Virus record (IMG/VR): IMGVR_UViG_3300027881_000536
Coordinates: 54,156-118,155 of that record
DNA length: 64,000 bases
DNA from: a virus
Direction: 5' to 3' (one strand)
The notes beneath the pieces are model-generated. The model saw only the letters and a list, made by a program, of their open reading frames with translations. It was not told where the DNA came from and made no database searches. A program made the position numbers and the translations under genes. The stretch's first letter is position 1; every line of letters begins with the position of its first letter. Shown in pieces: positions 9,001-62,477 of the stretch.

Positions 9001-12000
9001 ACATTAGCACTTTATAATCCACTAGGAGTGAATGAATCTACCTCGCCTGCTTGGAGTCGCAAGAGTCTACCTTACTATCCTGGTATGTTCCAACTTGCTA
9101 GTCCAGGCTATACTCTCACTGTGCCTTGGTGGTCACCAGCATATACCACTGCTAGTGGGACACTTACCAATGGCGTGTTTGCAGGAGTCAATACTGATAC
9201 CCAAGGCAATTCATATAATTGGAGAAACACTGAACAGTATCATCCTAATCACTACTATCACTTTTCTCGAACTGGTTACGGTTCCGTAGGCGCTCAGTCA
9301 GTCATGACTGGCTATCCTACCCATTATCTGAACCCGTATCTACATTCTTATGAGTCACTCAATCCTAGTTGTGTAATCAAGTATGCTGATGATGGTAATG
9401 ACCAAATATTGGTAGACAATAATAATTTATTCCCAGAAGTTTCGTTTGTTTACGATGATTGTATGTTGACTGTTATTGACCCAGATGGAGGTACATATGA
9501 AGCCAACTATGGTTATCGTGGGCAGGCTAGTGGTGAAGAAAATGCTACCACGAACAGATTCTATCAAGTGAATGGTTCAACACAATTCTGGGCCGCTTGT
9601 ATTGAAGGTAGGAGGTTGACCCTTACTGGTACTACTAGGAAGCCAGGGGAAGTCTATACTGACAAACTATCCAGTGTTGCTGCTCATCATATACAGGACC
9701 TAAGAGCAGGTACTGGTGATACTGGCACTAGTCATCTACCCGACGCCTATCTATCCATGTGGCATTACAATCTTGGTAGACCCATGACATATTACTCTGA
9801 TAATAGGGCAAGCGCAACTGCTGCTGCTGTAGATAAGAAGCCCTACAACCATCTACCTGAGCACTATGAAACTGTACACTATCATGACTTTGGTTATGTT
9901 GCTAGTGATGGTCCCTTTGACTTTAGGGGATATGGTTGGGATGATGATGGGGCTAACATTGTCACTCCTAACTCAATGGGTACTGGGTCAGGAGATTGGT
10001 TCCCTCAAGCCCGCACTGCTAATAGTTTGTACTATCACTATGGCGCATTCTGGCCTGGTGGCTCACGCTTTGGTGCACAGGCTAGTAGGATGGACCTTTG
10101 GGGAACTGCTGGGCCTGGTTGGGGTAGATTCTGGGACTCGGACCACATCATACAAGAGCAAAGTACTGCAACACAGTTCAGATATGACAGTGCTTCTGGT
10201 ATAACTGATAGTATCAGCAGTGTAAATCATAAGAGAAATGCTGCTTTCGGTTTCCGTTTCTGTGTAAGAGGTCCCTTCAATAGACCAAGGGCTGCGCTTT
10301 GGTCTGCCCAAGGGTTCGATGATACCTACGATAATGAGCACGCTGGTTACAGATTCGGACCATATGTACAGAATGATGCAGTTACTGCTGCTATCTATAC
10401 TCCAGCAACTAATGCTAATACTTCTACTGCAGGTACTGAGTCTATAGCCTCTGGTTATTCTGGTATCATTGAGAGGTTGACTAATGCTTCAGCCTTAATC
10501 GGTTCTGATTTGAAAGGGCAGCAAGTCAAGTATAGTCATGGTAGAAGAATGTGTAGACCATTCGGCTGTGCTGTTAGGAATATTGTGAATGACCCTTATG
10601 CTATACGCCACCACCAAGGAGATTATGTGGCGGGAGCAGCCTCTGCTGATACTGATATCACCAATAGGAGAAGAGACTTGGCAACAGCCCTCGCTCACTA
10701 CATGACTGATTGGTGGGGTAATACTACTGGAGAAGATGTGCGTAGGCTTCCAGTAAGAGGGTTTGGTATCAGACCGGCTTGGGACCCGGAAGATGCTTAC
10801 AGGGCTACTGATAGAACTAGAAATGCTCAAGTATTTGCTGCTCCAAGTGGACATGGTAAGGCTCGAGTCACTCTCGATTTATTTGACCCTGCTACTGCTA
10901 AGAGAGTAGGAGATAGAGGAGATGGAAGAGGAGTTAGATGGCCTACGGTATTCAATGAAGATGTACTACAAGAAGTGGACACTATCATGGATGCTACTGG
11001 CTTAGTGCTCTCATCCAATACTGCAGAGCCACCCCTAGGTAATGGCTATACTCGTGCACGCAATGATGACTTACAACTCAATGAAGTGCCAAGAGGGATT
11101 AGTAGGAGACTGGATGTACATGCTGATGATGGTTTGTTGAAACCAGAAGCCATGGCAGGTTCCAATGTAGAGAAGGCTGCTAATGATTTACTACCAGCAA
11201 GTGAAGTTCTGCAGGAACCAATATCCCGTATCGCTCCTCGGATTGGGCTTGACACTCTGACTATAGGAGAAAGTACAGGGGGCATCGCAAATACTCATGT
11301 TGCTCTTGGGACAGAAGCCCATAGCCTACATACAGATAGAGTGGCGGGTCGTAGATATACATTATCTGGGGGGATAAGAACAAACGATGCATACAGTAAA
11401 CCCTTAGCCGACTATGACCTTTCATCCCTCTCCTTTGTGCAGAAAGATGGTCCTAGTGGTAGTTCCAATGTACCTCATTTCGTACAGGTTATGCGACTCA
11501 ATTATACTCATGGTCTATGGCCTTTGGGTGGTAATCTCATTATGGATTTGAGAAACTATACAGAACCTGTGGATGATGAGAATTGGGGTACTCATTTTCA
11601 AGGGAGAAATAACTATTGGAGTGCTAATCCCTATGAAACAACCAGTCACAATGCTGATACTACACGCACTAACAACTCAGATTACTCAATCAAATTCCTA
11701 CTAAGACCTGTAAGAGTATTGGACCATCGACATCTAGAAATATTCCGAGACCGATTCACTAATGCATTGAGTGCTACTGCTGCTGGTCGCTATGGGGTCT
11801 TCACCTATGATACTCCTAATGCTAGGGCTACTACTGGTGGATTTTTCCTTAGAGGTACTAACCCTGCCCCAGATAATCCTCCTTATCCACCAGCATATCA
11901 TTTCTTGAATGACACTGTTGTCGACAACACCATTTCTACAGAAACCAAAGACTACAGATTACCTATCAGTGTTGGCCCTATTATTCCTGGGACTGAGGCC

Positions 12001-26567: not shown

Positions 26568-26720
26568 TCACTCTTCTTCATCTTTGGGTAGATTCAAAGC
26601 ATAAAATGAGAGGTCATTGAGTAGTGAGAAAATCATCCCACCGACAGTAATGGCTACAGGTATCACACAGCATAGTGAGAATAGTATGTAAAGCAGGGTA
26701 GTAGCCCAATCAATGTCCAT
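26568..26720 (-). CDS. Small membrane protein (50 aa), missed by the ORF track
   Basis: MDIDWATTLLYILFSLCCVIPVAITVGGMIFSLL...KDEEE; overlaps the chaperonin stop; one hydrophobic segment. Confidence 0.55.
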   Translation of the reverse strand: MDIDWATTLLYILFSLCCVIPVAITVGGMIFSLLNDLSFYALNLPKDEEE

Positions 26721-28224
26721 CTTCCTGTCCTCTCATCGCTATGATGTCGTCAATCCTAAGGACTGAAGTGCCTACTTCTGTGGCACTACTAATCACTTGC
26801 TTAACCAGGGACTCTGGCTCCACAATTCCCTTATCTAGTGTGTTGCAAATCTCACCCACACCGTCATCATCTATGTAGAGACCGATACCTGGCTCTGCTG
26901 ACCTTAGTTCCATGACCACATCTAAGGGGTCCATGCCAGCGTTGTTCGCTATGGCTGCAGGGATTATCTCTAGTGCGTCAGCGTATGCCTCCATGCACAT
27001 GCGCTCTCGAGCACTCATGTTAGCCTGCTTAGCAGCATGAGTTCTCACTGCCATAGATGCAGCAGAGAAGGCTGCTCCACCACCGGGAAAGCCTCTGTTA
27101 CCATCCTTCATACTGAGGCAGGTCACACCCACGGCGTCGTCGAACGCCCTCTCATATTCATCTAGAGTCTGGCGTGTTGCACCTCTGACTACCAAAGTGG
27201 TAGCCTCTCCTGGTCCGGAGACAGTCACGAAGTCTAGGTCACCTATCCTTTCCTCCTTCACTGCGATGTCTATCCCATCTACAGGGTCTGTGATGTCCAC
27301 TACTCTGTGATAGATTGGGACATTGAACAGTCTGGAAAGTGATTCCATGTCACTCTGTTGTAGTCTAGTGATGAGGGGGATGCCATTCTGCCCTAGGTAA
27401 TGGGCTACAGCCTCATGGACTGAGTCCCTAACAAATACACACCCGTTAGGCCCTGTGGCACCAGCAACCATGCTTGCTAGTTCACTGAGCATCTCGAGTT
27501 CCTGTTGCTTGAGAGCCTGGAGTTGACCCATGTTCTCAACCTGTATCTGGTCTACATCATATCCATCCAGTCCCCCGTTTATGAGTAGCACACTGACCTC
27601 ACCTGAGACCTCTTTGATATCTCCCACATCGTTAGCGAACTCCTTGTTCAGAACCAATCCGTCCTGCACATAGGAATCTTTGAGGGAACCACCAGCCTGA
27701 GTTATCACCTTGATTCTCTCGAGGTCACCTCCTGCTTTCTCTGCTGCTTTGAAGCAAAGCGTAGCAGCATAATCAAGTTCACTTTCGGCAGCCTTACCGC
27801 GCATGGCAGTCTTGGCTGCATCTAACACATCTATCTCGACTGGGTCTAGATTGTTGAGAGCAATGTGTTTGCCTCTGTCAAATGACCTGAGTATAACTCG
27901 GGGGTGAATACCCCTGAGTAGTAGCCCTTCACTGAGGGCTAGCATCTGACCGGCTAACACCACCACACTGGTGGTCCCATCCTTACAGACAGCCTCCTGT
28001 GTCTTACTAGCATCTATCATCATCAACGCACCAGGGTGTGCTGCATCTAATTCTCTCAGGATAGTCACACCATCGTTGGTCACGATGTTATGATTACCAT
28101 TGGTCAGCATCTTATCCATACCTGCTGGCCCAAGGGTAGACCTGACGGTCTCGGCTATATTCATAGCCGCTTTTATGTTACTCATTTGCGCTTCTCTTCC
28201 ACTTTGCTGTGTTTTCTCACTCAT
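26710..28224 (-). CDS. ths: Viral group II chaperonin (thermosome-like)
   Basis: TLGPAGMDKM, VTNDGVTIL, DGTTS ATP-binding motif, GGGA, LRIDDII; archaeal thermosome pattern without a GGM tail. Confidence 0.95.
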   Translation of the reverse strand: MSEKTQQSGREAQMSNIKAAMNIAETVRSTLGPAGMDKMLTNGNHNIVTNDGVTILRELDAAHPGALMMIDASKTQEAVCKDGTTSVVVLAGQMLALSEGLLLRGIHPRVILRSFDRGKHIALNNLDPVEIDVLDAAKTAMRGKAAESELDYAATLCFKAAEKAGGDLERIKVITQAGGSLKDSYVQDGLVLNKEFANDVGDIKEVSGEVSVLLINGGLDGYDVDQIQVENMGQLQALKQQELEMLSELASMVAGATGPNGCVFVRDSVHEAVAHYLGQNGIPLITRLQQSDMESLSRLFNVPIYHRVVDITDPVDGIDIAVKEERIGDLDFVTVSGPGEATTLVVRGATRQTLDEYERAFDDAVGVTCLSMKDGNRGFPGGGAAFSAASMAVRTHAAKQANMSARERMCMEAYADALEIIPAAIANNAGMDPLDVVMELRSAEPGIGLYIDDDGVGEICNTLDKGIVEPESLVKQVISSATEVGTSVLRIDDIIAMRGQEDGH

Positions 28225-30457: not shown

Positions 30458-31204
30458 CTAAGAATCTCGAGAACTTCGACGCTCGATGTGGACTGGTTCC
30501 TCACTGGTGAGAGCCTCTAGAACCCTAGCCCTAAGCACCTTACCCATGCGTGGTACTCCCCTGAGACAGTCCCCACAAGCAGCCTCCTCTAGGCTACCAC
30601 AAGCACCGATAATCTTGTCCACCATCTCATCACCTATGCCTGGGATGGTACGGAGCATGTCTACTCTGACATCGTTGCTTGATACCCTACGGATAGCCTG
30701 TGCGCCGTGTCTACTGGCACTCTTGTAGGTCTTCTCATGTAGACCTACCATGAAGTGTGATGCCTCCATCAGGTTAGGTGCACGGTATACTAGGCACCCA
30801 AAGTCTGCAGCGATGCGGGCTAAGCCTCCTGCTACCTGCTTTGTTGCAGCACTGAAATTGATGGAGCCTCCTCTTGCTTGGGCCTGCTTGACATAGTCTG
30901 CTACTGGACCCCACACTACTACTCCATACATATCTACATTGGCGTCGAGATTATCTAACTGCCTCATTAGATGCCCACTCCTAAGTGATTCTAGGAAGTC
31001 CCCCACACTCTTGGCTTCCATATACCATTCTCCACACTTGTAGTCCCCAACAACTAGATGTTCTCTAACTATGGAGAGGGGTGGGCTCTTCTTGTGAGCC
31101 CTGCGTTCCACTGCATCGAACAGTGGACCACGCTCGTTGGTGTCTATCACTAGTGGTCTTACAGACTTCCTGTCCCGTCCCATAACTGGCACCTCCCGAG
31201 GCAT
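30458..31204 (-). CDS. XPF/ERCC4-family structure-specific nuclease with HhH2
   Basis: LVIDTNE, GDY, EAKSVGDF (ERKxxxD-like), C-terminal IPGIG and VPRMG HhH motifs. Confidence 0.85.
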   Translation of the reverse strand: MPREVPVMGRDRKSVRPLVIDTNERGPLFDAVERRAHKKSPPLSIVREHLVVGDYKCGEWYMEAKSVGDFLESLRSGHLMRQLDNLDANVDMYGVVVWGPVADYVKQAQARGGSINFSAATKQVAGGLARIAADFGCLVYRAPNLMEASHFMVGLHEKTYKSASRHGAQAIRRVSSNDVRVDMLRTIPGIGDEMVDKIIGACGSLEEAACGDCLRGVPRMGKVLRARVLEALTSEEPVHIERRSSRDS

Positions 31205-33731: not shown

Positions 33732-36050
33732 TTACCACCAACCATACGCCTTGGGACGGGGTGCTCCAAGAGCACCGTCTATGTCCCAACCAAGGGTAGT
33801 GTAAACACTATCTAACTTGGCCTTCAGCATTTTCTGGAGTATTACATCTGAATCTAGCACATAGCCCTCTAACTCAGAGGGTTCTCGATAGGCTATGATG
33901 TTGGGAATGCCCTGCACATAGGTCCAGGGAACTGAGTCCCCCTTCCCAAACTTGGGGCCTTTGGAATCGTCGTTGTAGTTTGTTGCTGCTTTAGCAGCAC
34001 CACCCAACACCTTGTAGTCTCGGAGTGCCATCCCTAACCTAGTGGTCAGGGTCACCTCCTTGAGAGGGACTTCACCCTCGCGTATGGACATGGCTATCGG
34101 ACGGACATAGGATTCTACCTCACCCTCATCTGCTCCGCTACACACCATGTTGAACACCTCTTTCTGCACCTTCTTGGATAGGGGTGCTGCGTTGGAGGAT
34201 TTCATCTCAAAGCCTGCCACTTTTAGTTCACCGCTCATCTTCTTACCTACATACCTGTTCTTCTTGACCAGCAACCAGTAAGGCATCCAGTCTTCTAGTT
34301 CTACGGACAACATCTTGTTGCCAGTGGCCTCCTGCACAGTCTTCGTGATTTTGTCGGCCAGCATCTCAGCGTCCTCGTAAGGGACCTTGATGAATACTGA
34401 GTCAGTGTGACCATAGAGGCACTCGTAGCCATTGCTAGTGGTGACTTGGTCCAGTAGGTGGATGCACCTCCTCCCCTCGTGGGTGATGGTGTGTGCTATG
34501 TCTAGGTCAGCCCAGCCATAACCACCATGTGCGGTCATGCCATAGAGTGAGGCCATGACCCTCTTAATCGCCATCTGTGTGGTGTTCCAAGCACCGCGTT
34601 CTTCCTCGGTTTCAGCGTGTCGCATCTTGAACTTACATTCATCTCGATAGGCGAACAGATACTCTACTACACTAGGTAGCAAACCCTGCTCACTCTGGTC
34701 CCAGAAGGTGCCGTTATCGAGTTGGAGTATGTTCTCACCAGGGCCGTCCCTCTTGGTCTCATAAGAGAGGTTGTTGCCTAAAATGAGAGATGCATACAGC
34801 CCCTTGTAATCAAGCAGGCCAACGCCTTGATGCAAACCAGTTACAAGATTCAGTCCTACTTCTGCACCCTTGAGTGAGCCACTGTCACCTCTGGCTCTGG
34901 TTGGAGCCTTCTTGTCTGTCCTCCTTGAGAGTAGACCCCTAGCGAAGTTAGTCACATTACATGCTGAGGGTAGAGTGACTCCGCAGAGTCTGACCATCTG
35001 TATGTAGAAGTCGGTGACATTCTTGGCCTCATCTATCCCTCTGAGTAGATGGGTGTCTAGTAGACAGTAGTCCACGAAGTCACCCCAGTGTTTGTACCAT
35101 CCATTGTGGACATCCATGCCCTCTATATCCTCAGTGAGTTTGGAACCTAGGCCTAGCGTCTCTGCTATGTCGTTGAGTTTGAGGGATGGTAGTTGACCAC
35201 CCCCACTGTCTTTCCATACTCGCTCGAATCCTGTGCCACTGCTGGCCTGGGCTGCAGTATCGAACTGCCATCTACCTATGATGGGTTGGTCTGTTGGGTC
35301 ATACCTGTCCTTACCCTTCCTGAATCTCCTGACCTTTCCCACTGGACTCATTCGCTCAGGGTATGGAATCCTGTTGATGAGGTGAGGTAGGTCTGCGAAT
35401 GTCCCCGCGTGTGCAATTAGCATGTCGGGGTCGCGCTCACGCATGAATGATATGAAGGCCTCATGGAGTTCATGTTCTGAGTTGAAGAATCTTAGTTCAT
35501 ACTCTACATCACGAGCCATTCTCATTTGTGTGTCACCATGAGGTATGTATTCCCACACATTGGTGCGTTCGTCAGCCCAAGCAAAGACCACTGGCGTGTC
35601 TAAGTCGCTGTCTATCACAGCGATGACTGTGGTGAATGGGTCATCACCAGTGTCCCATTCTATGTCATACCACCACTTTCGTGGCTTCCAGTCTGGCATA
35701 ACTTGGACATTGTCTATCAGCCAGCGGTCTGTGAATCTAATATCAGCCTCGTATGTGTTGCTGAATTGCTCCCTCATCCTTGTAATCTCAAAGGGAGACT
35801 GTGCCTCTACTTTCACCAGTGGTGTGCCGTCGAGGCCAACGGCTTGCTCCTCGTAGATGACTCTGCTTTCTGGGAATCTAGTCATCACCCTCCTGAACTG
35901 GAAGTCAGGAGAGTTCTTTGGCACCCAGAAGTATGGCTTGTAACTCCTATCTGTGTGCTCGATGAGGTTACCCTCCTCATCACGGTATCGTGAGTATATG
36001 ATGGGTTGCTCACCATTCTCATAGTAATCATCGACTATCATTCTGAACAC
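33732..36050 (-). CDS. polB: Family B DNA polymerase
   Basis: Exo DIEWD, YCLLD; polymerase DYKGLYAS, KRVMASLYG, YGHTDS, KKNRY. The start may be the ATG at 36041. Confidence 0.97.
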   Translation of the reverse strand: MFRMIVDDYYENGEQPIIYSRYRDEEGNLIEHTDRSYKPYFWVPKNSPDFQFRRVMTRFPESRVIYEEQAVGLDGTPLVKVEAQSPFEITRMREQFSNTYEADIRFTDRWLIDNVQVMPDWKPRKWWYDIEWDTGDDPFTTVIAVIDSDLDTPVVFAWADERTNVWEYIPHGDTQMRMARDVEYELRFFNSEHELHEAFISFMRERDPDMLIAHAGTFADLPHLINRIPYPERMSPVGKVRRFRKGKDRYDPTDQPIIGRWQFDTAAQASSGTGFERVWKDSGGGQLPSLKLNDIAETLGLGSKLTEDIEGMDVHNGWYKHWGDFVDYCLLDTHLLRGIDEAKNVTDFYIQMVRLCGVTLPSACNVTNFARGLLSRRTDKKAPTRARGDSGSLKGAEVGLNLVTGLHQGVGLLDYKGLYASLILGNNLSYETKRDGPGENILQLDNGTFWDQSEQGLLPSVVEYLFAYRDECKFKMRHAETEEERGAWNTTQMAIKRVMASLYGMTAHGGYGWADLDIAHTITHEGRRCIHLLDQVTTSNGYECLYGHTDSVFIKVPYEDAEMLADKITKTVQEATGNKMLSVELEDWMPYWLLVKKNRYVGKKMSGELKVAGFEMKSSNAAPLSKKVQKEVFNMVCSGADEGEVESYVRPIAMSIREGEVPLKEVTLTTRLGMALRDYKVLGGAAKAATNYNDDSKGPKFGKGDSVPWTYVQGIPNIIAYREPSELEGYVLDSDVILQKMLKAKLDSVYTTLGWDIDGALGAPRPKAYGWW

Positions 36051-51103: not shown

Positions 51104-52711
51104 TCATAGTGCACTTATGCCGTGCACCTCTGTATATGCTGGGGTATCTCCCAGCCATTCTTCCATTAGATTTTCATTCAGTATATGGGCCATAACAGGC
51201 CTTCTGTCCTCTATATTGTATTCGATATCGGAATAATCTGCGTGGAACAAGGTGTTGTTCAGCAGGTCTGTGAACACATCATTGACTCTCTTGAGTCTCC
51301 CATCTAAGGTGTCCATACCCAATGCTGTCCCATCGAGTTTCCTCTTGTCATCAAACACAGTAGGCTTGTGAGTTATGGCTCCTGTGAAGCATTGTAGCGC
51401 ATGATACGCTGTATTCTTCTCATCGGCTGCTCTCACATAGTACAGGCTAGGGTCTTTCCAACCCTGTGATAGAGCCAAATCCATATGACTCCTGTTGATG
51501 TTCTTGACCTCTTGAGTCTCTTTGTTTTTGATGACTCTAGGTGGTGATAGACCTATGTTGTTCTCACTCATCACATACATCAGTTTGTCCATCAGTTGGA
51601 TGTCCATCGGAACCCAAGAGAGCAGTTCGGTATTGACCAACCACTCATTGAGTTCTGCTGTGGCATTCACTAGGTCTAAGCCTAACACATCCCAATCAAT
51701 ATCAGCCATGACTCCCTTGGTATGTCTGAGGTTCAAGGCTGTCTTGATGCCTCCAGCAACTGCAAGGTTGCTGCAATAGGTTCTCAAGGCTCCACCATGA
51801 ACGCTGAAGGAACCTCTCCCATCTAGGCTGTTGTTAATCGTAAACCCAAACTTGTAGAGTCCATCCAGGTTCTGGGCAGCCTCACTAAATGCGTCTGTGC
51901 TTAGGAAATTGTGTCCCCTCTCCTTCAATTGGGCTGCTGCTGCTTTCCTAGTCTGTGCCGCTTGGGTCACATCTAAGTCCACTCTACAACGAGCACCATC
52001 ATTCCATGCTGTGACTGACGAGTTGATGTTGGACATCTCTGCGTATCTCAGCATCGGCTCCACCCATTGAGGGTGCGGAAGCACATGGTATCTATCGCTG
52101 ACTGAGCCCAGTAGGGCTCCAGCAGGTCGTGTCTCTGATTTCATCGCTGGGTTGAATATACTCCAAGTGGCTGCGCTGCCATTGGGCTTGTTCACCCTTA
52201 CGAACTCCTCTCCACTAAACACAAAGTTAGGTAGGAACTCTGGTGTGAAGTTCCAAGGAGCCGTCTTCCTGGCTCTCCCTCCCTTCAACAGGGCTCCATC
52301 CCATACATCTGCGGAAGAATCTACTTCTTCGGCTTCCCATACCTTAGCAAACTCCACTCCTTTCGTTAGTTCTGTTGTTGGGGTGTCGTTGATGCGTGCT
52401 ATGAGGTTCTTCTCTGCTGCACCTTGTTCTACCATGTCTATCAGGTCTATGTGCAATTCGCTACTTGGCTGCACTGGCTGTCTCTCTCCTTTGAAGACCA
52501 TCTCGGGTCTGAATACTCCTCCAGGTGTCTCAAATTGGGACACCTTACAGAGCCATTCTCCCTCTTTAATCTTGAAAGTGGTCAAGGCATCGAATGGGAC
52601 TAGGGTGATTGTATCGTCTCCCCCTATAGCCGAGTAGTGTAGCGATACTACTGTCCCAGATTCGCTCTTCTTGACCTTATCTGCTATCATTATTATTTTC
52701 TGTTTTGTCAT
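51104..52711 (-). CDS. DUF932-family phage/plasmid protein with N-terminal extension (535 aa)
   Basis: VSDRYHVLPH, NSLDGRGSF...RTYCSN...LRHTKG signature. Confidence 0.75.
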   Translation of the reverse strand: MTKQKIIMIADKVKKSESGTVVSLHYSAIGGDDTITLVPFDALTTFKIKEGEWLCKVSQFETPGGVFRPEMVFKGERQPVQPSSELHIDLIDMVEQGAAEKNLIARINDTPTTELTKGVEFAKVWEAEEVDSSADVWDGALLKGGRARKTAPWNFTPEFLPNFVFSGEEFVRVNKPNGSAATWSIFNPAMKSETRPAGALLGSVSDRYHVLPHPQWVEPMLRYAEMSNINSSVTAWNDGARCRVDLDVTQAAQTRKAAAAQLKERGHNFLSTDAFSEAAQNLDGLYKFGFTINNSLDGRGSFSVHGGALRTYCSNLAVAGGIKTALNLRHTKGVMADIDWDVLGLDLVNATAELNEWLVNTELLSWVPMDIQLMDKLMYVMSENNIGLSPPRVIKNKETQEVKNINRSHMDLALSQGWKDPSLYYVRAADEKNTAYHALQCFTGAITHKPTVFDDKRKLDGTALGMDTLDGRLKRVNDVFTDLLNNTLFHADYSDIEYNIEDRRPVMAHILNENLMEEWLGDTPAYTEVHGISAL

Positions 52712-55735: not shown

Positions 55736-56025
55736 TTCTCCTCCTTCAGTAGTCGGTGTAGTGCAGGTGTAGGTGAACGCATACAGGTGTCTTTGAGCGT
55801 GTATCTCTTCTCAATTTCCAAAATTATCTTCAGCATAATCTTCTTATCGTTAGCATCATCTGTATCTTCCATCTTTTTCGCAAACATGTGCAGACAAGCC
55901 ATGACACTTGTAGTTGGGAAGTCGTTGCATACCTTGTCCAGCGGTGGTAATTTTGGGTCACCTTTCGCAGCAGACCACATGATGTTAGCAATCGTATTGG
56001 GTGTCAGAGGTGGTTTATTACTCAT
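55732..56025 (-). CDS. Hypothetical protein (97 aa)
   Basis: Coupled ORF. Confidence 0.55.
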   Translation of the reverse strand: MSNKPPLTPNTIANIMWSAAKGDPKLPPLDKVCNDFPTTSVMACLHMFAKKMEDTDDANDKKIMLKIILEIEKRYTLKDTCMRSPTPALHRLLKEEK

Positions 56026-56641
56026 CCTCTGACACCTCAATAAAGTTCATGCATAGCCAAGCAAGAAGCCACTCTTGCCTCACACAAGGGTAGTTCTCGT
56101 TCGGATGCTTGACGATAGCATCCAAATGACTGAATGCCACGAACAGAGATTCGCCGTCTGCCATTGTGAACTCAAGCATCTTGACATCTTCATCTCTGTT
56201 GTTCTTACCATCAGTAACTCCAACAAACTCCATTATCATGTAGTCTGAGGCTTCGCTAGCAAAACTAACCACATTGTGACTAGACTCCTGAAGCCTTCTC
56301 CCTAATTCCATCATCTCGTGTTGGTCTATGGAACCATTGGCAGTTGGGATGTTGAAAGCCATACCATACTGCCTTAGTGCTCTATCCGAGCCTGTCTGGC
56401 AGAATGGTGTGCCAATTTCTTCTTTCATCAATTGATGAACTTCTGCAGGGTCGGGGTGTCCAAACTGTAGGTGTAGACTCCCGCCGTTCTGCAGGTATGA
56501 CGATTTAATCCTGAACTCTGGTGCAGTCAGGTTTGGTGCTCCCTTCTCACCTTCGATGTTATCATCGAAGATTTCAGTAACATCGTTTTCGGGAACGACC
56601 TTCGTCGGTTTTGTCAAGTATTTTTTAATGTTTTCATTCAT
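56018..56641 (-). CDS. Hypothetical protein (~207 aa)
   Basis: Start MNENIKK inferred from the overlap. Confidence 0.55.
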   Translation of the reverse strand: MNENIKKYLTKPTKVVPENDVTEIFDDNIEGEKGAPNLTAPEFRIKSSYLQNGGSLHLQFGHPDPAEVHQLMKEEIGTPFCQTGSDRALRQYGMAFNIPTANGSIDQHEMMELGRRLQESSHNVVSFASEASDYMIMEFVGVTDGKNNRDEDVKMLEFTMADGESLFVAFSHLDAIVKHPNENYPCVRQEWLLAWLCMNFIEVSEDE

Positions 56642-56861
56642 TTTCTTCATTCTCCTGTTTCTTGGAGTCGTTGTATGCATTGTTGATGCAGAATATCGCC
56701 TTTTGGTTGAGATAATCGGCTCTCCTATCGTAGCCTTTTCTCTGCTCATCAGTTAGATTAGGATTATTGCTCTCCCCAATAGCGTGTATCATCTCACTCA
56801 TTATGTATGCGATTTCCCTCACCCAGTAATTATCGTGGTTAGCGCTTATCTCAGACGACAT
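56634..56861 (-). CDS. Hypothetical protein (75 aa)
   Basis: Start MSSEISAN inferred from the overlap with the phosphatase stop. Confidence 0.5.
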   Translation of the reverse strand: MSSEISANHDNYWVREIAYIMSEMIHAIGESNNPNLTDEQRKGYDRRADYLNQKAIFCINNAYNDSKKQENEENE

Positions 56862-58356
56862 TGTAGTCATCCTCCCCTGTGGTAGTTTCGTTAGTTGGAC
56901 CATTACCCTCTTCCTTCGCCTCACCTTGTTTAGGTGGGTTTGGGTCATCGGGCCAGTTCTTTCTATTGGTAAGCCTGAACCAATGCTGTGGACTCACACC
57001 ATCTAAGATTAATCCATCTTCCTTCACCAATTGATTAGTGAAGAAGAACGATGCATCCTTACTCTTATTGATACACTCAGGGCAAGCCTTGAGTGTGGTA
57101 GCATTCTTGACATCCAGAGCCATAGTTAGTATATGAGGGCTCAATTTCTTGAAACAGTAGTCGCACTTCACATGATGGACAAAGCCTCGGTCCCCTTTGG
57201 TGTAGTTAGGAGCATCTGACCTATCCTTCATGGTGATATCACACAGTACACAAGAATCTACCACGATGACATTTTCAAGTATCTTGTCCTCTCCATCTAA
57301 CACCGTAGTCCATACATTTACAAGGTTCCTAAGCAGGTTACCTTTGCAGGTGTTACTTGAGTTCAATCTCGTCTGACTCTCTAACAAGTCTGCCCAATTG
57401 TCACCATGTAGTGTTGTCATTAACTCTTCACTGAGATGATTTATTGACATCACTTGAAGGTCGCTAACCGGTTGTAAACACTTCAAACACATGCAGTAGT
57501 CGGTAGAATTGGTAGTGGTATCTCTCTTGACCACGAAGGGGCTCACATCCACTAATTTACCTTGACACTTGATGTCGAAACACCATTCGTCTTTCAGTAT
57601 GTCTTCATCAGTGTTCTCCCAAGATACGAAGTCACATAGTGTGCACTCCACCAACTTGATGTTGTAGTTGGTCTTAGCAGGTGGGTTCTTCTGCCAACCA
57701 CTTGTGCTACCACCGTAAACACTGTGGCCTTGGGTGTATCCCTTGTGGAATCCAAGTGGGGGTCCAACTTCTATTTCACACATATCTGCTACATACTTCT
57801 GTTGTGCTGTCGCTTCTACTGCCTTTTGGCAGTAATTATCTCTGACTTCGGTGATGAGTTCGTTGGAATCTTTCCAAGTCTTCTTCTCTTCATCACTAGC
57901 CAATAGATATCTTAGGATAGACAGTTGCACACCAGTTCTACCGTGTCCGCCCATACACATACAGTGGATGGACTTAATCTCGTTAGTCCTGATGTTCTCT
58001 GCCAGTTCTTCCCAGAACTCTTTGCCTAAATCTTGCGGGACTTTGTAATCAGGGAAGTCTATCGCAAGTATCTCCTTAGGTTCTACTTGCTCTATCTTGC
58101 TCATGCAAGACCATTTCTCCGCGTCCAGACCTCTTGTTGAGTACTTACTAGGCATACCCTTCATTACTTCGTTGTCTGGCCCCATAGCCAAGTCTGGTGT
58201 CTCATCCATGAGCCACCATCCTCCTGCTCTACTACTACCACCTGCATAGACCTTTATTCCGTCATGCGTGGTGAAGGCGAGTGGGTTACCTGTATGGCAT
58301 TCAACCCATCCACCTTTCTTTGTTGTTTTTCCTTGCTGATATTTTGTATCAATCAT
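56851..58356 (-). CDS. Cys-dependent (CX5R) PTP/DSP-fold phosphatase with C-terminal Zn fingers (501 aa)
   Basis: DFPDY general-acid loop, HCMC-MGGHG-RTG P-loop, AVEATAQQKYV Q-loop, five CxxC-type pairs; ATGA-coupled to the upstream giant gene. Confidence 0.8.
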   Translation of the reverse strand: MIDTKYQQGKTTKKGGWVECHTGNPLAFTTHDGIKVYAGGSSRAGGWWLMDETPDLAMGPDNEVMKGMPSKYSTRGLDAEKWSCMSKIEQVEPKEILAIDFPDYKVPQDLGKEFWEELAENIRTNEIKSIHCMCMGGHGRTGVQLSILRYLLASDEEKKTWKDSNELITEVRDNYCQKAVEATAQQKYVADMCEIEVGPPLGFHKGYTQGHSVYGGSTSGWQKNPPAKTNYNIKLVECTLCDFVSWENTDEDILKDEWCFDIKCQGKLVDVSPFVVKRDTTTNSTDYCMCLKCLQPVSDLQVMSINHLSEELMTTLHGDNWADLLESQTRLNSSNTCKGNLLRNLVNVWTTVLDGEDKILENVIVVDSCVLCDITMKDRSDAPNYTKGDRGFVHHVKCDYCFKKLSPHILTMALDVKNATTLKACPECINKSKDASFFFTNQLVKEDGLILDGVSPQHWFRLTNRKNWPDDPNPPKQGEAKEEGNGPTNETTTGEDDYNVV

Positions 58357-61300
58357 TCTATTTTCTCCCATTGTGTTACACTGAGAACATCGTCTGTTTC
58401 AGTGTGGAGTTCTTTTAACAGTGTATTGGTATCTCTATGACCAATAAGATTTGAACCGGACATTCTCTGCAGTACCTCCTTGAAGAAACCAGAGTCACCG
58501 GTTTTTGCCCATTTCTCCTTGCCTTTAGAATAAAGGCGCCTAGTATTGAACATATGAGAGTGCATAAACATATTACTATCCTCTTCCCAGATGGCAGCAG
58601 CCTTGTCTAACTCATCTGCTTTAGCGTAGATTTTGGGATAATACTTATCACAATTGTTCCATGCATCAATAGCAGTCGATGTATTGAAATCCTGTGAAAC
58701 CAAAGAGATACTGATTTGCCATCTCGCCAACATTTTATCTATCCACAAGTGCATATTTCCTGTATCATCATCATGATGAAATAACAGACTACCACCGGTA
58801 TATTTCGACACTTTCATTTCACCATGCTTTACCAAACGCTCCTTCTCCTCGAATATTGTCTGCTCAGGTGCTCTTGTGCTCATACCAGTAATCTCTGATT
58901 CTATTTGTGCTACGGTTGGGATATGCTCTGGGTCAACTTGGATTGTCCAATTACTCATGTATGTCGACAAAGCCATTGATACCATTGCCGCTTCCTCGCT
59001 TGTTAATCCCATTTCTTTTGTAGCAAAGTAATTTTGACAATCCTGTCGCTCACATTGGTCTAATCCGCAGATACCTTCAACATGCATAGTGTAACCATTA
59101 TTAAGTGGTATACCAAACAAATCCCTATCTTCATCAGAAACATCTAAATTGTCCCATGATTCTGTTAGTGGTTGATTAGAATCACTTGGTTTAGACATAC
59201 CATAGATTTCTTCTGCTGAGAAGGTCTTGAAATCACAATCTCGGTTACTTTCCTTAACTCGATTGGCTGCATTCTGTAGGTGCTGGATAAGTTTGTCATG
59301 ACCCTTTGCAACTCTTTCAGGCTCATTGACATAGTTAGTGTAGAACATGGCGTAGAATGGTGCTGTGACCAACCAGTGCTCAGAGGCTGACTGGAAGTTA
59401 TTGTGACCGAGTGTACCTATGTCAAATGCATCCTTATCTCCGAGGAATTTGTTGAAGAAGAAGCCTGTGTTGTGCACAGCATTCTCCAACTTGTTCACTT
59501 GACTTAGTATTCTCGATAAAGGTACATTCTTACCATTCATTAACTTCTTGACTAATTCTGTGACCTTTACCGTAGGATTGACTGAACTGAAGTATTTGTC
59601 ACCACCGTATGAATTACTATGCCATTGATTGTGCTCCTCACTGTATGACTCAGCGTAGAACTTAGCGATTTCATGCAAGTCATCATAGCCTATTTCATTG
59701 TAGTTGAGTCTTCGGTAGTATTCACTCCTTTGGAATAGGTTCCCGACACCACTCTCCCCAGAGATAGCCTTCTGGTACATTATGTGTGAGAATGCCCTAT
59801 GTGGAGTCATATTACATCTACCTCCTAATCCGTGCCTTAGTTCAGCCATACCGACTGCTAATGCTGCTTTAGTTATCCATGTAGTGAACACACCACCAAG
59901 GTATGCTTCTAGTCTTGGGTCATTCTTGGGACCACTGATGAAACTGTGGAAGAATTGTGATAATGGTGCTAGATTGTATGTCCAGAACCTATCTCCATCT
60001 CTCAACCCTATCTTGTAGAAGTCAAGGAATGGTTCAGGGTCGTATGGCTCAGGCTCTGCCTCCGGCATATCTGTGACCCAACCCCCTATCTCCGTCCACA
60101 CAGTGTGGTTCTTCTTTGGTTTGATACCATAGATAACAGGGAAGCCGAAGTCTATCGACACACCTCCAACATGAGCGTTCTGTGTACCTCCAGGGGCGTA
60201 GACTACCAAGCCTTCAGGTAATTCTCCATCTTTAGCCATCTGTTCAAGTTCCAAACACTCTTCAAGCGAGCCTTTACCCACATCCATGACTACTAATTGT
60301 TCAACTGAACCTGCTGGGACATTCCCAGCGATGTGTAGAACAATGCCGTTCACCTTTGGTGGCGGTCTAATGTCCATCTTTTCAGTGTGTAATCCTCTCA
60401 TTTGAGTGATTCCGGGCTTTATTCTAGCATTTTTGCCAGTATGCCTATCATCAGCAGTTTTCTTGAACCAAGTCAATGTACTACTTGATTTTGGGTTCTC
60501 ATATACGAACTCTATTTCGTGGTTATCCATACCATCTTCGAGATTGATGAGTCTGATGTCTTGTGCAAGGTATCTCTGTGCTCTAGCATTAAGGCTGAAC
60601 ACTATATTGCTACCACCACCTGCTGTAACTCCATCATGGTGAGGACCAACTATGAATGAAGAGGAAGTTTTACCAACCACACCTGAGCACATAGGTTTCT
60701 TGAATCTCTGGACTATCAAAGAACCATTAGGGTCGTAGTCAGAGTGACTCGGGTTGAGCATGCACTGACTCAGCATCCTAACACCTTCAATGAATTCCTC
60801 CTCATTCTTAGCGAGCACATTAGGTAGTGCTCCCGGACGAGGTGTTGCAGGGCAGGTTCTGATGAAGAAGCCACTCTTAGTCCATATCTTTCTCGATGGA
60901 CTACCTGTTCCCCATGTCCTGTATAGGCTAAGCAACAAATCTCTTGCTGAACTTACAGCAGCAGTATCTAATGAAAGGTGTAATGCTCTTGCAGAGTAGA
61001 ACAGGTGGTATTCCTGATTCAATGCTATCGCTCTAACACCTTTGGCCTTCTGTGACTCTGGGTCGAAGTTACCATCATTGGAATCGTAAACCAAGAAACC
61101 CTTCATGAAGATACTAGACATTATGTCTCCTTTAGACATCTCCAAATACTTTTTGAGTGTTTCTTTCATATCTTCAGATGACTTGTCAGAGGTCGACAGG
61201 TTAGACTGTCGTTGCAGGGCACCTTCTCGATGTGGTTGTCCCATATCTATAGTTTTAATCAAAGCATCATCAATAGCATTACCCACTACTTGTGCTATGA

Positions 61301-62477
61301 CTTCTGTCAAGCGTCCAATAATATCTCGCCTCTCTTCAGTAGAGAGTGCGTCGTTATAGCAATCATCAATTAATGGCATTGCGGTTTGACTCACGATGAC
61401 TTGCATGAAATCGCTAAGTGTAGAGGCCTTACCACACAAAGAGTAAATGTGCTCTTTGAATAGTTTCTTCGCTTCGTGCTTGAGAAGATTATCTATTAGC
61501 GTTTCAATAAAGTTGAATAATTGCTCATTAGAACATCTTAAGGAGTTTACGAAGGTATTCTCCATTTTCTCTCTGGACATAGTCGTGGATGTCAGTGCCC
61601 AACTGTCATCAAACCTGTATAAGGCTTCAAGTATCTTTGTGGCTCTCTTGTTAGAGTTAACGGGATAGACCGTTTGTTTCTTCTTTTCTTTATTTTCTTT
61701 ATTCATAATATCTACCATCTTTTGAAGGTTAGAAATTGCGGTTTGTTTGTTAGGGCCCCAATCGTCATCAGACAAGTAGCCATCATCGGGGATGTTTTTG
61801 CCACCTGTCCATTTTGTTTGTTTCTCCTGACCTGACGGGGTGAACTCTGGCATCTTCTCAAGGTAAGAGTTAACGATGTATACTGGTCTCCCTGAGGGAA
61901 GATGGTATATCATCTCTCCTTCCAAGTAACATGTTAGAACACTCTTGGTACATGGTGTGACTTCATGAGTTGGAGGGCTATCGGGATTCTTCTGTACCCA
62001 CTCATCATCGAATTCAAGAGGGTCAAAGAGTGACAAGTTGCTAATGGCGCTTGGCTTGAACACAGTTGATAGTAAGATAAGTGCTTGATTAGCAATGTGG
62101 TACTTTGCCCAATTAGATGCATTTAGTGAGTCATATTCACCCATATTATGGAAGGCACTCGCTTCAAGGTCAAATTCAGTGCCGACAATCTCAGGGAACA
62201 ACTCACCGAAGTCAGATAGACCGTGGTGCACCTTATGATAAGGGCATATTTTACAGTCATGGTCAGTACAATGGTCCCAATCAGGGTCCTCGAATTCTTC
62301 TCCGCTAGGTCCGTCATCATACCACTTGTTAACGAATTTTGTCATATCCCTATGTAGTACACCTATCAATGGAATAGTTTCAATGGAACACCACTTGCTA
62401 ATGACGCTTGGCTTGAACACAGTGGATTGCGTAGTGTCTGCTATTGTGTTATGAGTATGGTTATCCATCAGGGCCAC
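58353..62477 (-). CDS. Dikinase-like phosphotransferase: PEP-synthase-type ATP-grasp plus phospho-His swivel plus unknown domains (1374 aa)
   Basis: IRT, LIVQRF, SGV, DGVTAG, EIEF and ITQMRG align with PPS motifs VRSS, VQRM, SGV, GE.VV.G, DIEW and VQARP. YAPGGTQNAHVGG...FGFPVIYG aligns with GGxTxHAAI...GIPAVVG. Confidence 0.75.
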   Translation of the reverse strand: MALMDNHTHNTIADTTQSTVFKPSVISKWCSIETIPLIGVLHRDMTKFVNKWYDDGPSGEEFEDPDWDHCTDHDCKICPYHKVHHGLSDFGELFPEIVGTEFDLEASAFHNMGEYDSLNASNWAKYHIANQALILLSTVFKPSAISNLSLFDPLEFDDEWVQKNPDSPPTHEVTPCTKSVLTCYLEGEMIYHLPSGRPVYIVNSYLEKMPEFTPSGQEKQTKWTGGKNIPDDGYLSDDDWGPNKQTAISNLQKMVDIMNKENKEKKKQTVYPVNSNKRATKILEALYRFDDSWALTSTTMSREKMENTFVNSLRCSNEQLFNFIETLIDNLLKHEAKKLFKEHIYSLCGKASTLSDFMQVIVSQTAMPLIDDCYNDALSTEERRDIIGRLTEVIAQVVGNAIDDALIKTIDMGQPHREGALQRQSNLSTSDKSSEDMKETLKKYLEMSKGDIMSSIFMKGFLVYDSNDGNFDPESQKAKGVRAIALNQEYHLFYSARALHLSLDTAAVSSARDLLLSLYRTWGTGSPSRKIWTKSGFFIRTCPATPRPGALPNVLAKNEEEFIEGVRMLSQCMLNPSHSDYDPNGSLIVQRFKKPMCSGVVGKTSSSFIVGPHHDGVTAGGGSNIVFSLNARAQRYLAQDIRLINLEDGMDNHEIEFVYENPKSSSTLTWFKKTADDRHTGKNARIKPGITQMRGLHTEKMDIRPPPKVNGIVLHIAGNVPAGSVEQLVVMDVGKGSLEECLELEQMAKDGELPEGLVVYAPGGTQNAHVGGVSIDFGFPVIYGIKPKKNHTVWTEIGGWVTDMPEAEPEPYDPEPFLDFYKIGLRDGDRFWTYNLAPLSQFFHSFISGPKNDPRLEAYLGGVFTTWITKAALAVGMAELRHGLGGRCNMTPHRAFSHIMYQKAISGESGVGNLFQRSEYYRRLNYNEIGYDDLHEIAKFYAESYSEEHNQWHSNSYGGDKYFSSVNPTVKVTELVKKLMNGKNVPLSRILSQVNKLENAVHNTGFFFNKFLGDKDAFDIGTLGHNNFQSASEHWLVTAPFYAMFYTNYVNEPERVAKGHDKLIQHLQNAANRVKESNRDCDFKTFSAEEIYGMSKPSDSNQPLTESWDNLDVSDEDRDLFGIPLNNGYTMHVEGICGLDQCERQDCQNYFATKEMGLTSEEAAMVSMALSTYMSNWTIQVDPEHIPTVAQIESEITGMSTRAPEQTIFEEKERLVKHGEMKVSKYTGGSLLFHHDDDTGNMHLWIDKMLARWQISISLVSQDFNTSTAIDAWNNCDKYYPKIYAKADELDKAAAIWEEDSNMFMHSHMFNTRRLYSKGKEKWAKTGDSGFFKEVLQRMSGSNLIGHRDTNTLLKELHTETDDVLSVTQWEKIE
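62038..62423. repeat. 29-bp direct repeat (1 mismatch), 357 bp apart, in frame within the dikinase-like gene
   Basis: TTGCTAATG(G/A)CGCTTGGCTTGAACACAGT at 62038-62066 and 62395-62423, encoding TVFKPS(A/V)IS twice. Confidence 0.9.

What the first reader, a model, noticed from the sequence alone, without database searches (positions are those of the whole stretch)
56851..62477. Candidate novel viral phosphorylation switch: dikinase-like writer coupled to a CX5R phosphatase eraser
Seen: the 1374-aa ATP-grasp/phospho-His protein ends in a TGA that overlaps the ATG of a 501-aa Cys-phosphatase (ATGA at 58353-58356), and both lie near the start of the early transcription unit. Known: ATP-grasp plus His-swivel enzymes transfer the ATP beta-phosphate via pHis to diverse acceptors (pyruvate, rifampicin, glucan, glutamine), and CX5R enzymes remove phosphate from proteins, RNA ends, inositides and glucans. 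Glucan water dikinase with SEX4/laforin is a eukaryotic example of such a pairing. Inference: a reversible modification system acting on an unknown target (host protein, nucleotide signal, glycan/S-layer, archaeal lipid or viral DNA) for takeover or counter-defence. I know of no description of this pair in viruses.
Basis: partly seen in the sequence, partly recalled or inferred. Interest (0 to 1): 0.88.

Follow-up and report, generated by a model that had tools for sequence, protein, structure and literature searches.

The report
Viral dikinase-phosphatase module, substrate unknown
Two overlapping early genes of a probable marine archaeal virus encode an ATP-driven enzyme that carries phosphate on a swinging histidine to a helical domain with no known relatives, plus a cysteine phosphatase; the two genes travel together in every viral genome checked, the enzyme is wrongly labelled a sugar-metabolism gene in cultured phages, and its substrate is unknown.

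Summary
A 1374-aa ORF (more likely 1371 aa from the ATG at 62468) ends in a TGA that overlaps the ATG of a 501-aa ORF (ATGA at 58353-58356). No Pfam or PDB sequence match exists for the large protein, but its conserved core folds confidently as an ATP-grasp domain, a swivel domain with an invariant His769, and an all-helical domain. The best structural matches are rifampin phosphotransferase, PPDK and PEP synthase. The helical domain replaces the pyruvate barrel and has its own invariant polar residues. The small protein is a PTP-fold phosphatase (Z 12.8) with invariant C139-x5-R145 and D108.

The pairing is obligate: 54 of 54 assessable IMG/VR loci, plus 7 loci sampled across the family's depth. 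At least 41 cultured-phage records (Vibrio, Stenotrophomonas, Rhizobium, Rhodobacter) carry the same parts split into separate genes. There the dikinase is annotated as a "PPDK" metabolic gene.

I read the pair as two steps of one pathway, not an on/off switch. A nucleotide or DNA substrate is my leading guess, with weak support.

This scan has found the same module before on other DNA. It is a new variant of a known kind. No experiment has been done, and no paper found here treats the pair as a unit.

The parts
58353..62477 (-). Large gene (P0001): 1374 aa from GTG 62477, or more likely 1371 aa from ATG 62468. A dikinase-type phosphotransferase.
   Evidence: ORF list and translation. TGATG overlap with the upstream ORF. 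The database copy is 1371 aa.
61083..62477 (-). Variable N-terminal region (residues 1-465). Contains a Cys/His cluster and two copies of the peptide STVFKPS[VA]IS.
   Evidence: Poorly conserved in the family alignment A1. No match in other loci. The repeat was found only here in the genome.
60333..61070 (-). ATP-grasp nucleotide-binding domain (residues ~470-715). Motifs SQK(477), IRTCP(540), EIEF(654-657), TQMR(692-694).
   Evidence: AF2 model, pLDDT 83.7. Foldseek matches PPDK, RPH and PEPS at E~1e-4. VIA gives RPH Z 9.3 and PPDK Z 8.6. Phage G 'PPDK' gp139 matches at E 6e-8. R540, T618, Q692 and R694 are invariant or nearly so in 150 representatives. The motifs are co-linear with bona fide viral PPDK_N proteins.
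60054..60332 (-). Swivel domain (residues ~716-808) carrying the candidate phospho-histidine His769 (codon 60171-60173) in GGTQNAHVGGV...FPVIYG.
   Evidence: His769 is present in 125 of 125 representatives. The structural alignments run through the His domains of RPH and PPDK. The only hhalign match to the cultured-phage PPDK-like family is this motif against GGxTSHAAVVAR. Codon checked.
58938..60053 (-). All-helical domain (residues ~809-1180) in place of the PEP/pyruvate barrel. Invariant residues: E879-x-R881-H882, W952, Y957-G958-G959, H1002-N1003, N1009-K1010, D1019. A Cys cluster follows at 1137-1147.
   Evidence: Model. No PDB fold above generic helical matches (Z <= 6.4). Invariance. 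Homologous to the free-standing ~340-aa protein of cultured phages: hhalign probability 95.9%, E 5e-9.
58353..58356 (-). ATGA stop/start overlap between the two genes.
   Evidence: The same abutting or overlapping junction occurs in most related loci.
56851..58371 (-). Phosphatase gene (P0002): 501 aa from ATG 58356, or 506 aa from ATG 58371.
57757..58299 (-). PTP-fold catalytic domain (residues 25-205). P-loop C139-MGGHG-R145-T at 57934-57957. Candidate general acid D108 at 58048-58050 in DFPDY.
   Evidence: AF2 pLDDT 84. Foldseek matches Tk-PTP, VHZ, SsoPTP and PTEN. VIA gives VHZ Z 12.8, with 53 chains at Z >= 8, all PTP or DSP. C139, G141-G147, P107 and D108 are invariant in 120 sequences.
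56938..57684 (-). C-terminal Cys-rich (CxxC) domain of the phosphatase (residues ~230-478). Confidently folded, fold not identified.
   Evidence: Model. Shared only with the long-type relatives L001, L002 and L010. Absent from or different in the 385-433-aa relatives.
56018..56749 (-). 243-aa ORF just downstream. Its homologues lie between the dikinase and the phosphatase in the closest relatives, so it may be a third component.
   Evidence: Clustering of neighbours. No Pfam or PHROG match.

Best explanation
P0001 is a three-station phosphotransferase of the PEP-utilising (dikinase) kind. An ATP-grasp domain binds ATP. The beta-phosphate passes to His769 on a small swivel domain, releasing AMP. 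The swivel carries the phosphate to a second active site in a helical domain that has no described relatives and stands where PPDK and PEP synthase have their pyruvate barrel. The acceptor bound there is unknown.

The cysteine phosphatase P0002 is translated from the overlapping next gene. It removes a phosphate from the product, or from a later intermediate or by-product, of that reaction. The two enzymes are therefore successive steps of one virus-encoded pathway run at the start of infection. They are not a metabolic PPDK, and probably not an on/off switch.

My leading guess for the substrate class is a nucleotide or the viral DNA (base or nucleotide-pool modification).

Shown: the folds, the intact catalytic residues, the obligate gene linkage, and homology to the split cassette of cultured phages. 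Inferred: phosphate flow, order of steps and substrate class.
For: Fold: AF2 model of residues 460-1250 has pLDDT 83.7 and pTM 0.83. Top PDB matches are PPDK, RPH and PEPS. VIA gives RPH Z 9.3 (283 residues aligned) and PPDK Z 8.6 (293 aligned). Both alignments span the ATP-grasp and His domains.

Active sites: His769 is invariant (125/125). ATP-site residues R540, T618, Q692 and R694 are invariant or nearly so. A second invariant polar cluster lies in the helical domain. The motifs are co-linear with true PPDK_N/PEP-utilizer proteins.

Phosphatase: Z 12.8 to VHZ. C-x5-R and D108 are invariant.

Linkage: the dikinase lies directly upstream of the phosphatase in 54/54 assessable IMG/VR loci. 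The same holds in loci picked from either side and from remote family members.

Family size: 992 clusters at 50% identity.

Split form: 41 cultured-phage records carry PPDK_N+PEP-utilizers (no barrel) - PTP1 - helical protein - PTP2, mostly beside the DNA polymerase.

Substrate hint: DNA of the cassette-bearing phage DLP3 resisted all 15 restriction enzymes tried, and its modification is unidentified (PMC7326821). In this window the pair heads the block that holds the replication genes.
Against: There is no biochemical evidence at all. The ATP-grasp/His part is invisible to Pfam and to profile-profile comparison, apart from a 27-column match at the His motif (E 0.04). Its assignment therefore rests on a predicted structure.

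Structural Z scores of 8-9 are only moderately above background for this tool.

The substrate guess is correlative. One phage has modified DNA of unknown chemistry. This genome has no thymidylate-synthase-type hydroxymethylase and no other recognisable base-modification gene in the proteins scanned.

Nothing shows that the phosphatase acts on the dikinase's product.
Confidence: 0.6

Rival explanations
1. Reversible switch. The dikinase phosphorylates and the phosphatase dephosphorylates the same site on a host or viral protein, or on a signal molecule, to control takeover or counter-defence.
For: A writer and an eraser are encoded together. The nearest structural neighbours of the phosphatase are small protein phosphatases: VHZ, Tk-PTP and SsoPTP. 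GWD with SEX4 shows that dikinase/PTP cycles exist (established knowledge).
Against: The genes are co-transcribed and translationally coupled in nearly every locus. Both activities would therefore be present together with no visible regulator, which on a single site is a futile ATP-consuming cycle. No known dikinase of this family phosphorylates a protein side chain as its end product. The acceptor domain carries a deeply invariant catalytic-looking residue set rather than a docking surface.
Confidence: 0.15
2. Phosphorelay. The phospho-His passes its phosphate to Cys139 of the PTP-fold protein, as PTS enzyme I/HPr feed phospho-Cys EIIB proteins. The 'phosphatase' then acts as a phosphoryl carrier or transferase to the final acceptor.
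For: The helical domain and the PTP gene are adjacent in all forms, including loci without a detectable dikinase (L080, L081). PTP catalysis proceeds through a phospho-Cys intermediate (established knowledge).
Against: The invariant general-acid Asp and the full CX5R-T loop are those of hydrolytic PTPs. No fusion of the two proteins was found. There is no evidence of contact between them.
Confidence: 0.07
3. Auxiliary metabolic gene. The large protein is a true PPDK or PEP synthase that boosts host carbon and energy metabolism, as genome papers on cultured phages state. The phosphatase is an unrelated neighbour.
For: The cultured-phage homologues of the front half match PPDK_N and PEP-utilizers strongly and are annotated as PPDK (PMC12038007, PMC9229204).
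Against: Neither P0001 nor the cultured-phage proteins have the PEP/pyruvate barrel; no PEP-utilizers_C hit was found. P0001 carries a helical domain there instead. The phosphatase linkage is obligate, which an unrelated neighbour would not show.
Confidence: 0.03
4. RNA-end or nucleic-acid-end processing. The kinase-type and phosphatase-type activities act on 5' or 3' ends of RNA or DNA, for example repair of host-cleaved tRNA or removal of 5' triphosphates, as T4 Pnkp and baculovirus PTP do.
For: RNA 5'-phosphatases of the PTP fold are among the structural matches (baculovirus BVP Z 9.3, PIR1 Z 9.2, human capping enzyme Z 8.8). P0002 has a Cys-rich tail of CxxC motifs.
Against: These matches rank below the protein and lipid DSPs. 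No ligase partner is linked to the module. No dikinase is known to act on polynucleotide ends.
Confidence: 0.1

Closest known systems
Rifampin phosphotransferase (RPH-Lm; PDB 5HV1/5HV3/5FBS; PMC4844700) and the 'small-molecule dikinase' group
   Same: Three stations: an ATP-grasp domain, a phosphate-carrying His swivel domain, and a separate substrate-binding domain that is not a TIM barrel. The reaction is ATP + substrate -> phospho-substrate + AMP + Pi. RPH is the best structural match to the P0001 core (Z 9.3, 283 residues).
   Different: Domain order differs. RPH inserts its substrate domain between the ATP-grasp and the C-terminal swivel. P0001 runs grasp, swivel, helical domain. The helical domain does not align with the rifampin-binding domain. 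There is no sequence similarity. RPH has no phosphatase partner.
Pyruvate phosphate dikinase / PEP synthase (C. symbiosum 1DIK, T. brucei 2X0S, N. meningitidis 2OLS)
   Same: Same domain order for the first two stations, and co-linear motifs: GGK / VRSG / D-I-E-F...LQTR / GGxTSHAA against SQK / IRTC / E-I-E-F...TQMR / GGTQNAH. Foldseek top hits.
   Different: No PEP/pyruvate TIM barrel. Below Pfam detection. The linker between ATP site and His is shorter, and there is a 36-residue insert between the EIEF and QMR motifs.
'PPDK' - PTP - hypothetical - PTP cassette of cultured siphophages (Vibrio SIO-2, VHS1, KarBoss, J26, Virtus; Stenotrophomonas DLP3/DLP5; Rhizobium RHph_TM16; Rhodobacter RcZahn)
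   Same: Same parts. A barrel-less dikinase front end. A helical protein homologous to the P0001 helical domain (hhalign 95.9%). PTP-fold phosphatases homologous to P0002 (E 1e-8 to 1e-18). The phosphatase directly follows the helical module.
   Different: The parts are split into four genes with two phosphatases. Their dikinase still matches Pfam PPDK_N/PEP-utilizers and keeps a ~200-aa C-terminal piece of its own. The hosts are Proteobacteria, whereas this virus looks archaeal. The cassette lies between the terminase and the polymerase/portal genes rather than at the head of an early block.
Glucan water dikinase with SEX4/LSF2 or laforin
   Same: A His-swivel dikinase and a DSP-fold phosphatase working on one substrate in one process.
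   Different: No carbohydrate-binding module was detected in either protein. GWD has a different domain order (established knowledge). The resemblance is an analogy of logic only.

Membership tests
PEP-utilising / dikinase enzymes (PPDK, PEPS, RPH, GWD) | ATP-grasp nucleotide-binding domain of the PPDK_N type (fold) | tested here: met
   Foldseek PPDK/RPH/PEPS E~1e-4, probability 0.99. VIA Z 7-9.3 over model residues 1-240/346. Phage G gp139 'PPDK' E 6e-8.
PEP-utilising / dikinase enzymes (PPDK, PEPS, RPH, GWD) | Match to the Pfam models PPDK_N (PF01326) and PEP-utilizers (PF00391) | tested here: not met
   No Pfam hit at E <= 1 for P0001, for 22 relatives, or for 10 remote relatives. hhalign to true viral PPDK_N proteins matches only at the His motif, E 0.04.
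PEP-utilising / dikinase enzymes (PPDK, PEPS, RPH, GWD) | Swivel domain with a conserved phospho-accepting histidine | tested here: met
   His769 in 125/125 representatives. Structural alignments extend through the His domains of 1DIK and 5HV3. The motif register matches GGxTSHAA...G.P..VG.
PPDK / PEP synthase proper | C-terminal PEP/pyruvate-binding TIM barrel (PEP-utilizers_C) | tested here: not met
   No Pfam hit. The region is all-helical in the model.
PEP-utilising / dikinase enzymes | ATP-dependent autophosphorylation on His with release of AMP | not testable with these tools
   Needs purified protein.
Cysteine-based PTP / dual-specificity phosphatase superfamily | PTP fold | tested here: met
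   VIA Z 12.8 to VHZ (138 residues, rmsd 2.9). 53 chains at Z >= 8, all PTP or DSP. Foldseek probability 1.00.
Cysteine-based PTP / dual-specificity phosphatase superfamily | C-x5-R(S/T) phosphate-binding loop | tested here: met
   C139-MGGHG-R145-T146, invariant in 120 sequences. Codons checked.
Cysteine-based PTP / dual-specificity phosphatase superfamily | General-acid Asp on an upstream loop | tested here: inconclusive
   P107-D108 is invariant and aligns with the PTEN loop that holds its Asp. Its position in space relative to the P-loop was not inspected.
Cysteine-based PTP / dual-specificity phosphatase superfamily | Score above a Pfam gathering threshold | tested here: not met
   PTP-SAK 14.3 bits against 27. 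Y_phosphatase 13.6 against 20.9. A few relatives carry PF00102.
Glucan dikinase / glucan phosphatase system | Carbohydrate-binding module on kinase or phosphatase | tested here: not met
   No CBM family in Pfam scans of either protein at E <= 1.
Cultured-phage 'PPDK'-PTP cassette | Helical protein with the E-x-R-H / YGG / H-N...N-K signature next to a PTP gene | tested here: met
   hhalign 95.9%, E 5e-9, 130 columns. Reciprocal HMM hits. The PTP is directly downstream.
Cultured-phage 'PPDK'-PTP cassette | Two PTP genes flanking the helical protein | tested here: not met
   The whole 118-kb genome holds only one PTP-family ORF.

The most novel reading that the evidence does not exclude
The helical domain is a new catalytic domain. 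It uses the histidine-delivered phosphate to activate a nucleotide or a base in DNA. Together with the cysteine phosphatase it forms a previously unknown nucleic-acid modification (or nucleotide-pool editing) pathway. That pathway would be shared by marine archaeal viruses and by bacterial siphophages such as DLP3, whose DNA resists every restriction enzyme tried.
Probability: 0.2. Interest if true: 0.9.

Novelty: new variant of a known kind. Interest (0 to 1): 0.68.

Why it matters
About a thousand sequence clusters of viral proteins share an enzyme architecture with no Pfam family and no known substrate. All are locked to a phosphatase gene. In cultured phages the same genes are reported as carbon-metabolism genes ("PPDK"), which the missing pyruvate barrel makes very unlikely, so current claims that phages carry this metabolic gene need revising.

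Because the split form exists in easily grown Vibrio, Stenotrophomonas, Rhizobium and Rhodobacter phages, the function is directly testable by knock-outs. A link to DNA modification would add a new chemistry to the phage-host arms race. It would also show that this chemistry is shared between viruses of archaea and of bacteria.

Tried and rejected
- Sequence searches of P0001 against Pfam, PHROGs, PADLOC, the PDB and cultured phages found nothing useful.
- Complex prediction of the P0001 core with the P0002 PTP domain gave no verdict: score 0.00, controls not run. It says nothing either way.
- Whole-model searches gave the helical domain no convincing PDB fold, only generic helical matches at Z <= 6.4. 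The same applies to the C-terminal domain of P0002.
- The ESM Atlas gave no usable hit.
- Fusions of dikinase and phosphatase were looked for and not found. A 'longer' search with the PTP region found none (weak evidence). None appear among 150 family representatives.
- A pattern scan of 185,579 species genomes found no relative. That scan is insensitive, and earlier notes of this scan report bacterial copies, which I did not test.
- The thymidylate-synthase lead is an annotation error. PHROG 17568 and DLP3 gp141 are PTP-fold proteins (the CD-search result in PMC7326821 reports PTP domains in gp139 and gp141). The genome has no ThyA-type gene.
- The variable N- and C-terminal parts of P0001 have no match in related loci.
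- Literature searches for a described function of the pair found none.


Full report
**Observation.** The window is the right-hand 64 kb of a 118,155-bp single-contig virus record that CheckV rates complete. On the minus strand, ORF 58353..62477 (1374 aa from a GTG) is followed by ORF 56851..58371. The plus-strand letters TCAT at 58353-58356 are ATGA on the coding strand. The TGA of the first gene therefore overlaps an in-frame ATG that gives a 501-aa product. The database copy has that length. The large gene more probably begins at the ATG at 62468. That start gives 1371 aa, as in the database copy, and itself overlaps the stop of the upstream small ORF (TGATG). Four small ORFs, the pair, and then the helicase, clamp loader, family-B polymerase, exonuclease and primase genes form one leftward block that starts about 150 bp from the genome end. 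Early timing is not shown.

**The large protein.** Sequence methods are blind to it. There is no Pfam family at E <= 1, no PDB relative, no PADLOC hit and no cultured-phage match. It does have relatives: 23 by word-seeded search and 992 clusters at 50% identity by full HMM search, 723 of them at E <= 1e-10. None of ten remote members scanned has a Pfam domain.

The conserved core is residues ~470-1180. The N- and C-terminal parts are variable. An AlphaFold2 model of residues 460-1250, built on 27 sequences, is confident (pLDDT 83.7, pTM 0.83). Its first 350 residues match pyruvate phosphate dikinase, rifampin phosphotransferase and PEP synthase best (Foldseek E~1e-4). VIA-align gives RPH Z 9.3 over 283 residues and PPDK 1DIK Z 8.6 over 293 residues. 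Both alignments run through the ATP-grasp and the His-swivel domains. In the viral structure library the top match is Bacillus phage G gp139 (E 6e-8), which is annotated as PPDK.

The motifs are co-linear with those of true viral PPDK_N/PEP-utilizer proteins. SQK, IRTC, EIEF...TQMR and GGTQNAH correspond to GGK, VRSG, D[IV]EF...LQ[TS]R and GGxTSHAA. Across 150 family representatives, His769 is present in 125 of 125, and R540, T618, Q692 and R694 are invariant or nearly so.

**The helical domain.** Residues ~809-1180 are all-helical, and no solved structure matches beyond generic helical similarity (Z <= 6.4). I could not fold this domain alone, so I do not claim a new fold. The domain has its own strictly conserved polar set: E879, R881, W952, G958, G959, H1002, N1003 and K1010 are invariant, and H882, R917, N995 and D1019 are nearly so. 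That pattern looks like a second active site. The protein is thus a dikinase-type enzyme whose pyruvate barrel is replaced by a different acceptor domain. RPH is the precedent for such an arrangement (PMC4844700).

**The small protein.** Residues 25-205 fold as a PTP/dual-specificity phosphatase (pLDDT 84). VIA gives Z 12.8 to VHZ, and 53 chains at Z >= 8 are all of this fold. In 120 aligned relatives the loop C139-MGGHG-R145-T146 and the P107-D108 loop are invariant. The His that precedes the first Cys in this copy is not conserved, and the consensus reads Q-C. Pfam scores stay below threshold. Residues 230-478 form a confidently folded Cys-rich domain that only the closest relatives share.

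**Linkage.** Five of five IMG/VR loci found with the dikinase carry the phosphatase downstream. Four of four loci found with distant phosphatases carry the dikinase upstream. Three of three remote dikinase relatives are followed by a phosphatase.

A larger sample drawn with the phosphatase profile gave 57 loci with a strong match. In 54 of them a fused dikinase ORF ends at or overlaps the phosphatase start. In the other three the contig ends within 650 nt upstream. In the closest relatives two small genes sit between the pair. One of them is homologous to the 243-aa ORF just downstream of the phosphatase here.

**Cultured phages.** Weak phosphatase matches led to Vibrio phage KarBoss, Rhizobium phage RHph_TM16 and Stenotrophomonas phage DLP3. 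These, together with Rhodobacter phage RcZahn, Vibrio phage SIO-2 and a Nahant Vibrio phage, share one cassette:
- a 650-735-aa "pyruvate phosphate dikinase"
- one to three small genes
- a short PTP
- a ~340-aa hypothetical protein
- a second PTP

In five of these six the cassette is soon followed by DNA polymerase A.

The "PPDK" matches PPDK_N and PEP-utilizers but has no barrel domain. The 340-aa protein is homologous to the helical domain of P0001, with the same invariant motifs (hhalign 95.9%, E 5e-9, 130 columns). The reverse search also finds it. Both PTPs are homologous to P0002. The 340-aa protein occurs in 41 phage records: 33 Vibrio, 4 Stenotrophomonas, 2 Rhizobium, 1 Rhodobacter and 1 uncultured.

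Among the IMG/VR loci with distant phosphatases, ten of eleven have a helical-protein gene directly upstream, and most show the full split cassette. Two loci show only the helical protein plus the phosphatase. The constant core of the system is therefore the helical module followed by the phosphatase. The ATP-grasp/His front end is either fused to it or encoded just upstream.

**Literature.** Genome papers list the two genes separately as auxiliary metabolic genes (PMC12038007, PMC9229204). I found no paper that treats them as one system or tests a function. In some records the second PTP is labelled thymidylate synthase. This is an error, since the DLP3 paper's own domain search calls it a PTP. 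It explains the odd PHROG name.

**Mechanism.** By analogy with PPDK, PEPS and RPH, I take the flow to be ATP to His769 to an acceptor held by the helical domain, with AMP released. The phosphatase then acts on the product or on a later intermediate.

I prefer a pathway to a switch for three reasons:
- The two genes are translationally coupled and never separated, with no regulator in sight.
- On one site the pair would simply burn ATP.
- The acceptor domain looks catalytic.

The substrate is unknown. A nucleotide or DNA substrate is my leading guess for three reasons:
- The module sits with the replication genes here, and mostly beside the polymerase in cultured phages.
- DLP3 DNA resisted all 15 restriction enzymes tried, with no modification pathway identified (PMC7326821).
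- P0002 has a CxxC-rich tail.

This is correlative. The genome has no ThyA-type hydroxymethylase and no other recognisable modification gene in the proteins scanned.

**Host.** The genome encodes a group II chaperonin nearest to archaeal thermosomes. It also encodes an ERCC4/XPF nuclease. Its family-B polymerase is nearest to archaeal enzymes and to those of haloarchaeal tailed viruses. An archaeal host is likely, so the module spans viruses of both prokaryotic domains.

**Earlier work in this scan.** The same module has been reported by follow-up agents on other genomes, including one marine archaeal virus. My results were obtained before I read those notes and agree with them. One lead from them, a PCNA-binding tail on the phosphatase, does not hold for this family in general (1 of 120 tails).

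**Verdict.** The feature is real. It is a new variant of a known enzyme kind, it is widespread, and it is biochemically untouched.

Noticed in passing
window 26710-28224 (-): The virus encodes a full-length group II chaperonin (Cpn60_TCP1, E 7e-105). Its nearest solved relatives are archaeal thermosomes. This points to an archaeal host.
   Followed up: partly
window 30458-31204 (-) and 33732-36050 (-): An ERCC4/XPF-type nuclease with an HhH tail, and a family-B DNA polymerase nearest to archaeal PolB and to haloarchaeal tailed-virus polymerases. Both are further archaeal-virus signatures.
   Followed up: partly
window 1-12207 (+) and genome 5784-14900, 30522-37709 (+): Three giant ORFs of 5100, 3038 and 2395 aa lie in the rightward (structural) half of a 118-kb genome.
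   Followed up: no
window 62040-62069 and 62397-62426 (-): The variable N-terminus of the large protein holds two copies of the peptide STVFKPS[VA]IS, about 120 residues apart. The peptide occurs nowhere else in the genome.
   Followed up: partly
window 56018-56749 (-): A 243-aa orphan ORF downstream of the phosphatase is homologous to the ~210-aa gene that lies between dikinase and phosphatase in the closest relatives (L001, L002, L010). It may be a third component.
   Followed up: partly
L017 5632-6408 (Stenotrophomonas phage DLP3 gp141) and PHROG 17568: A PTP-fold protein is annotated 'thymidylate synthase' in GenBank records and in the PHROG family name. This is a propagated annotation error.
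   Followed up: yes
L080 4545-6657 and L081 5221-6537: Two IMG/VR viruses carry only the helical-protein gene followed by the phosphatase, with no recognisable dikinase within 6 kb. This may be a minimal form, or a form served by a distant kinase.
   Followed up: partly
window 51104-52711 (-): A 535-aa protein with a DUF932 domain is conserved next to the module in the closest relatives (L001, L002, L010).
   Followed up: no
L022 3881-4978 (Bacillus phage G gp139): A 365-aa 'PPDK' of a jumbo Bacillus phage is the best viral structural match to the P0001 front end. No phosphatase is annotated nearby.
   Followed up: partly
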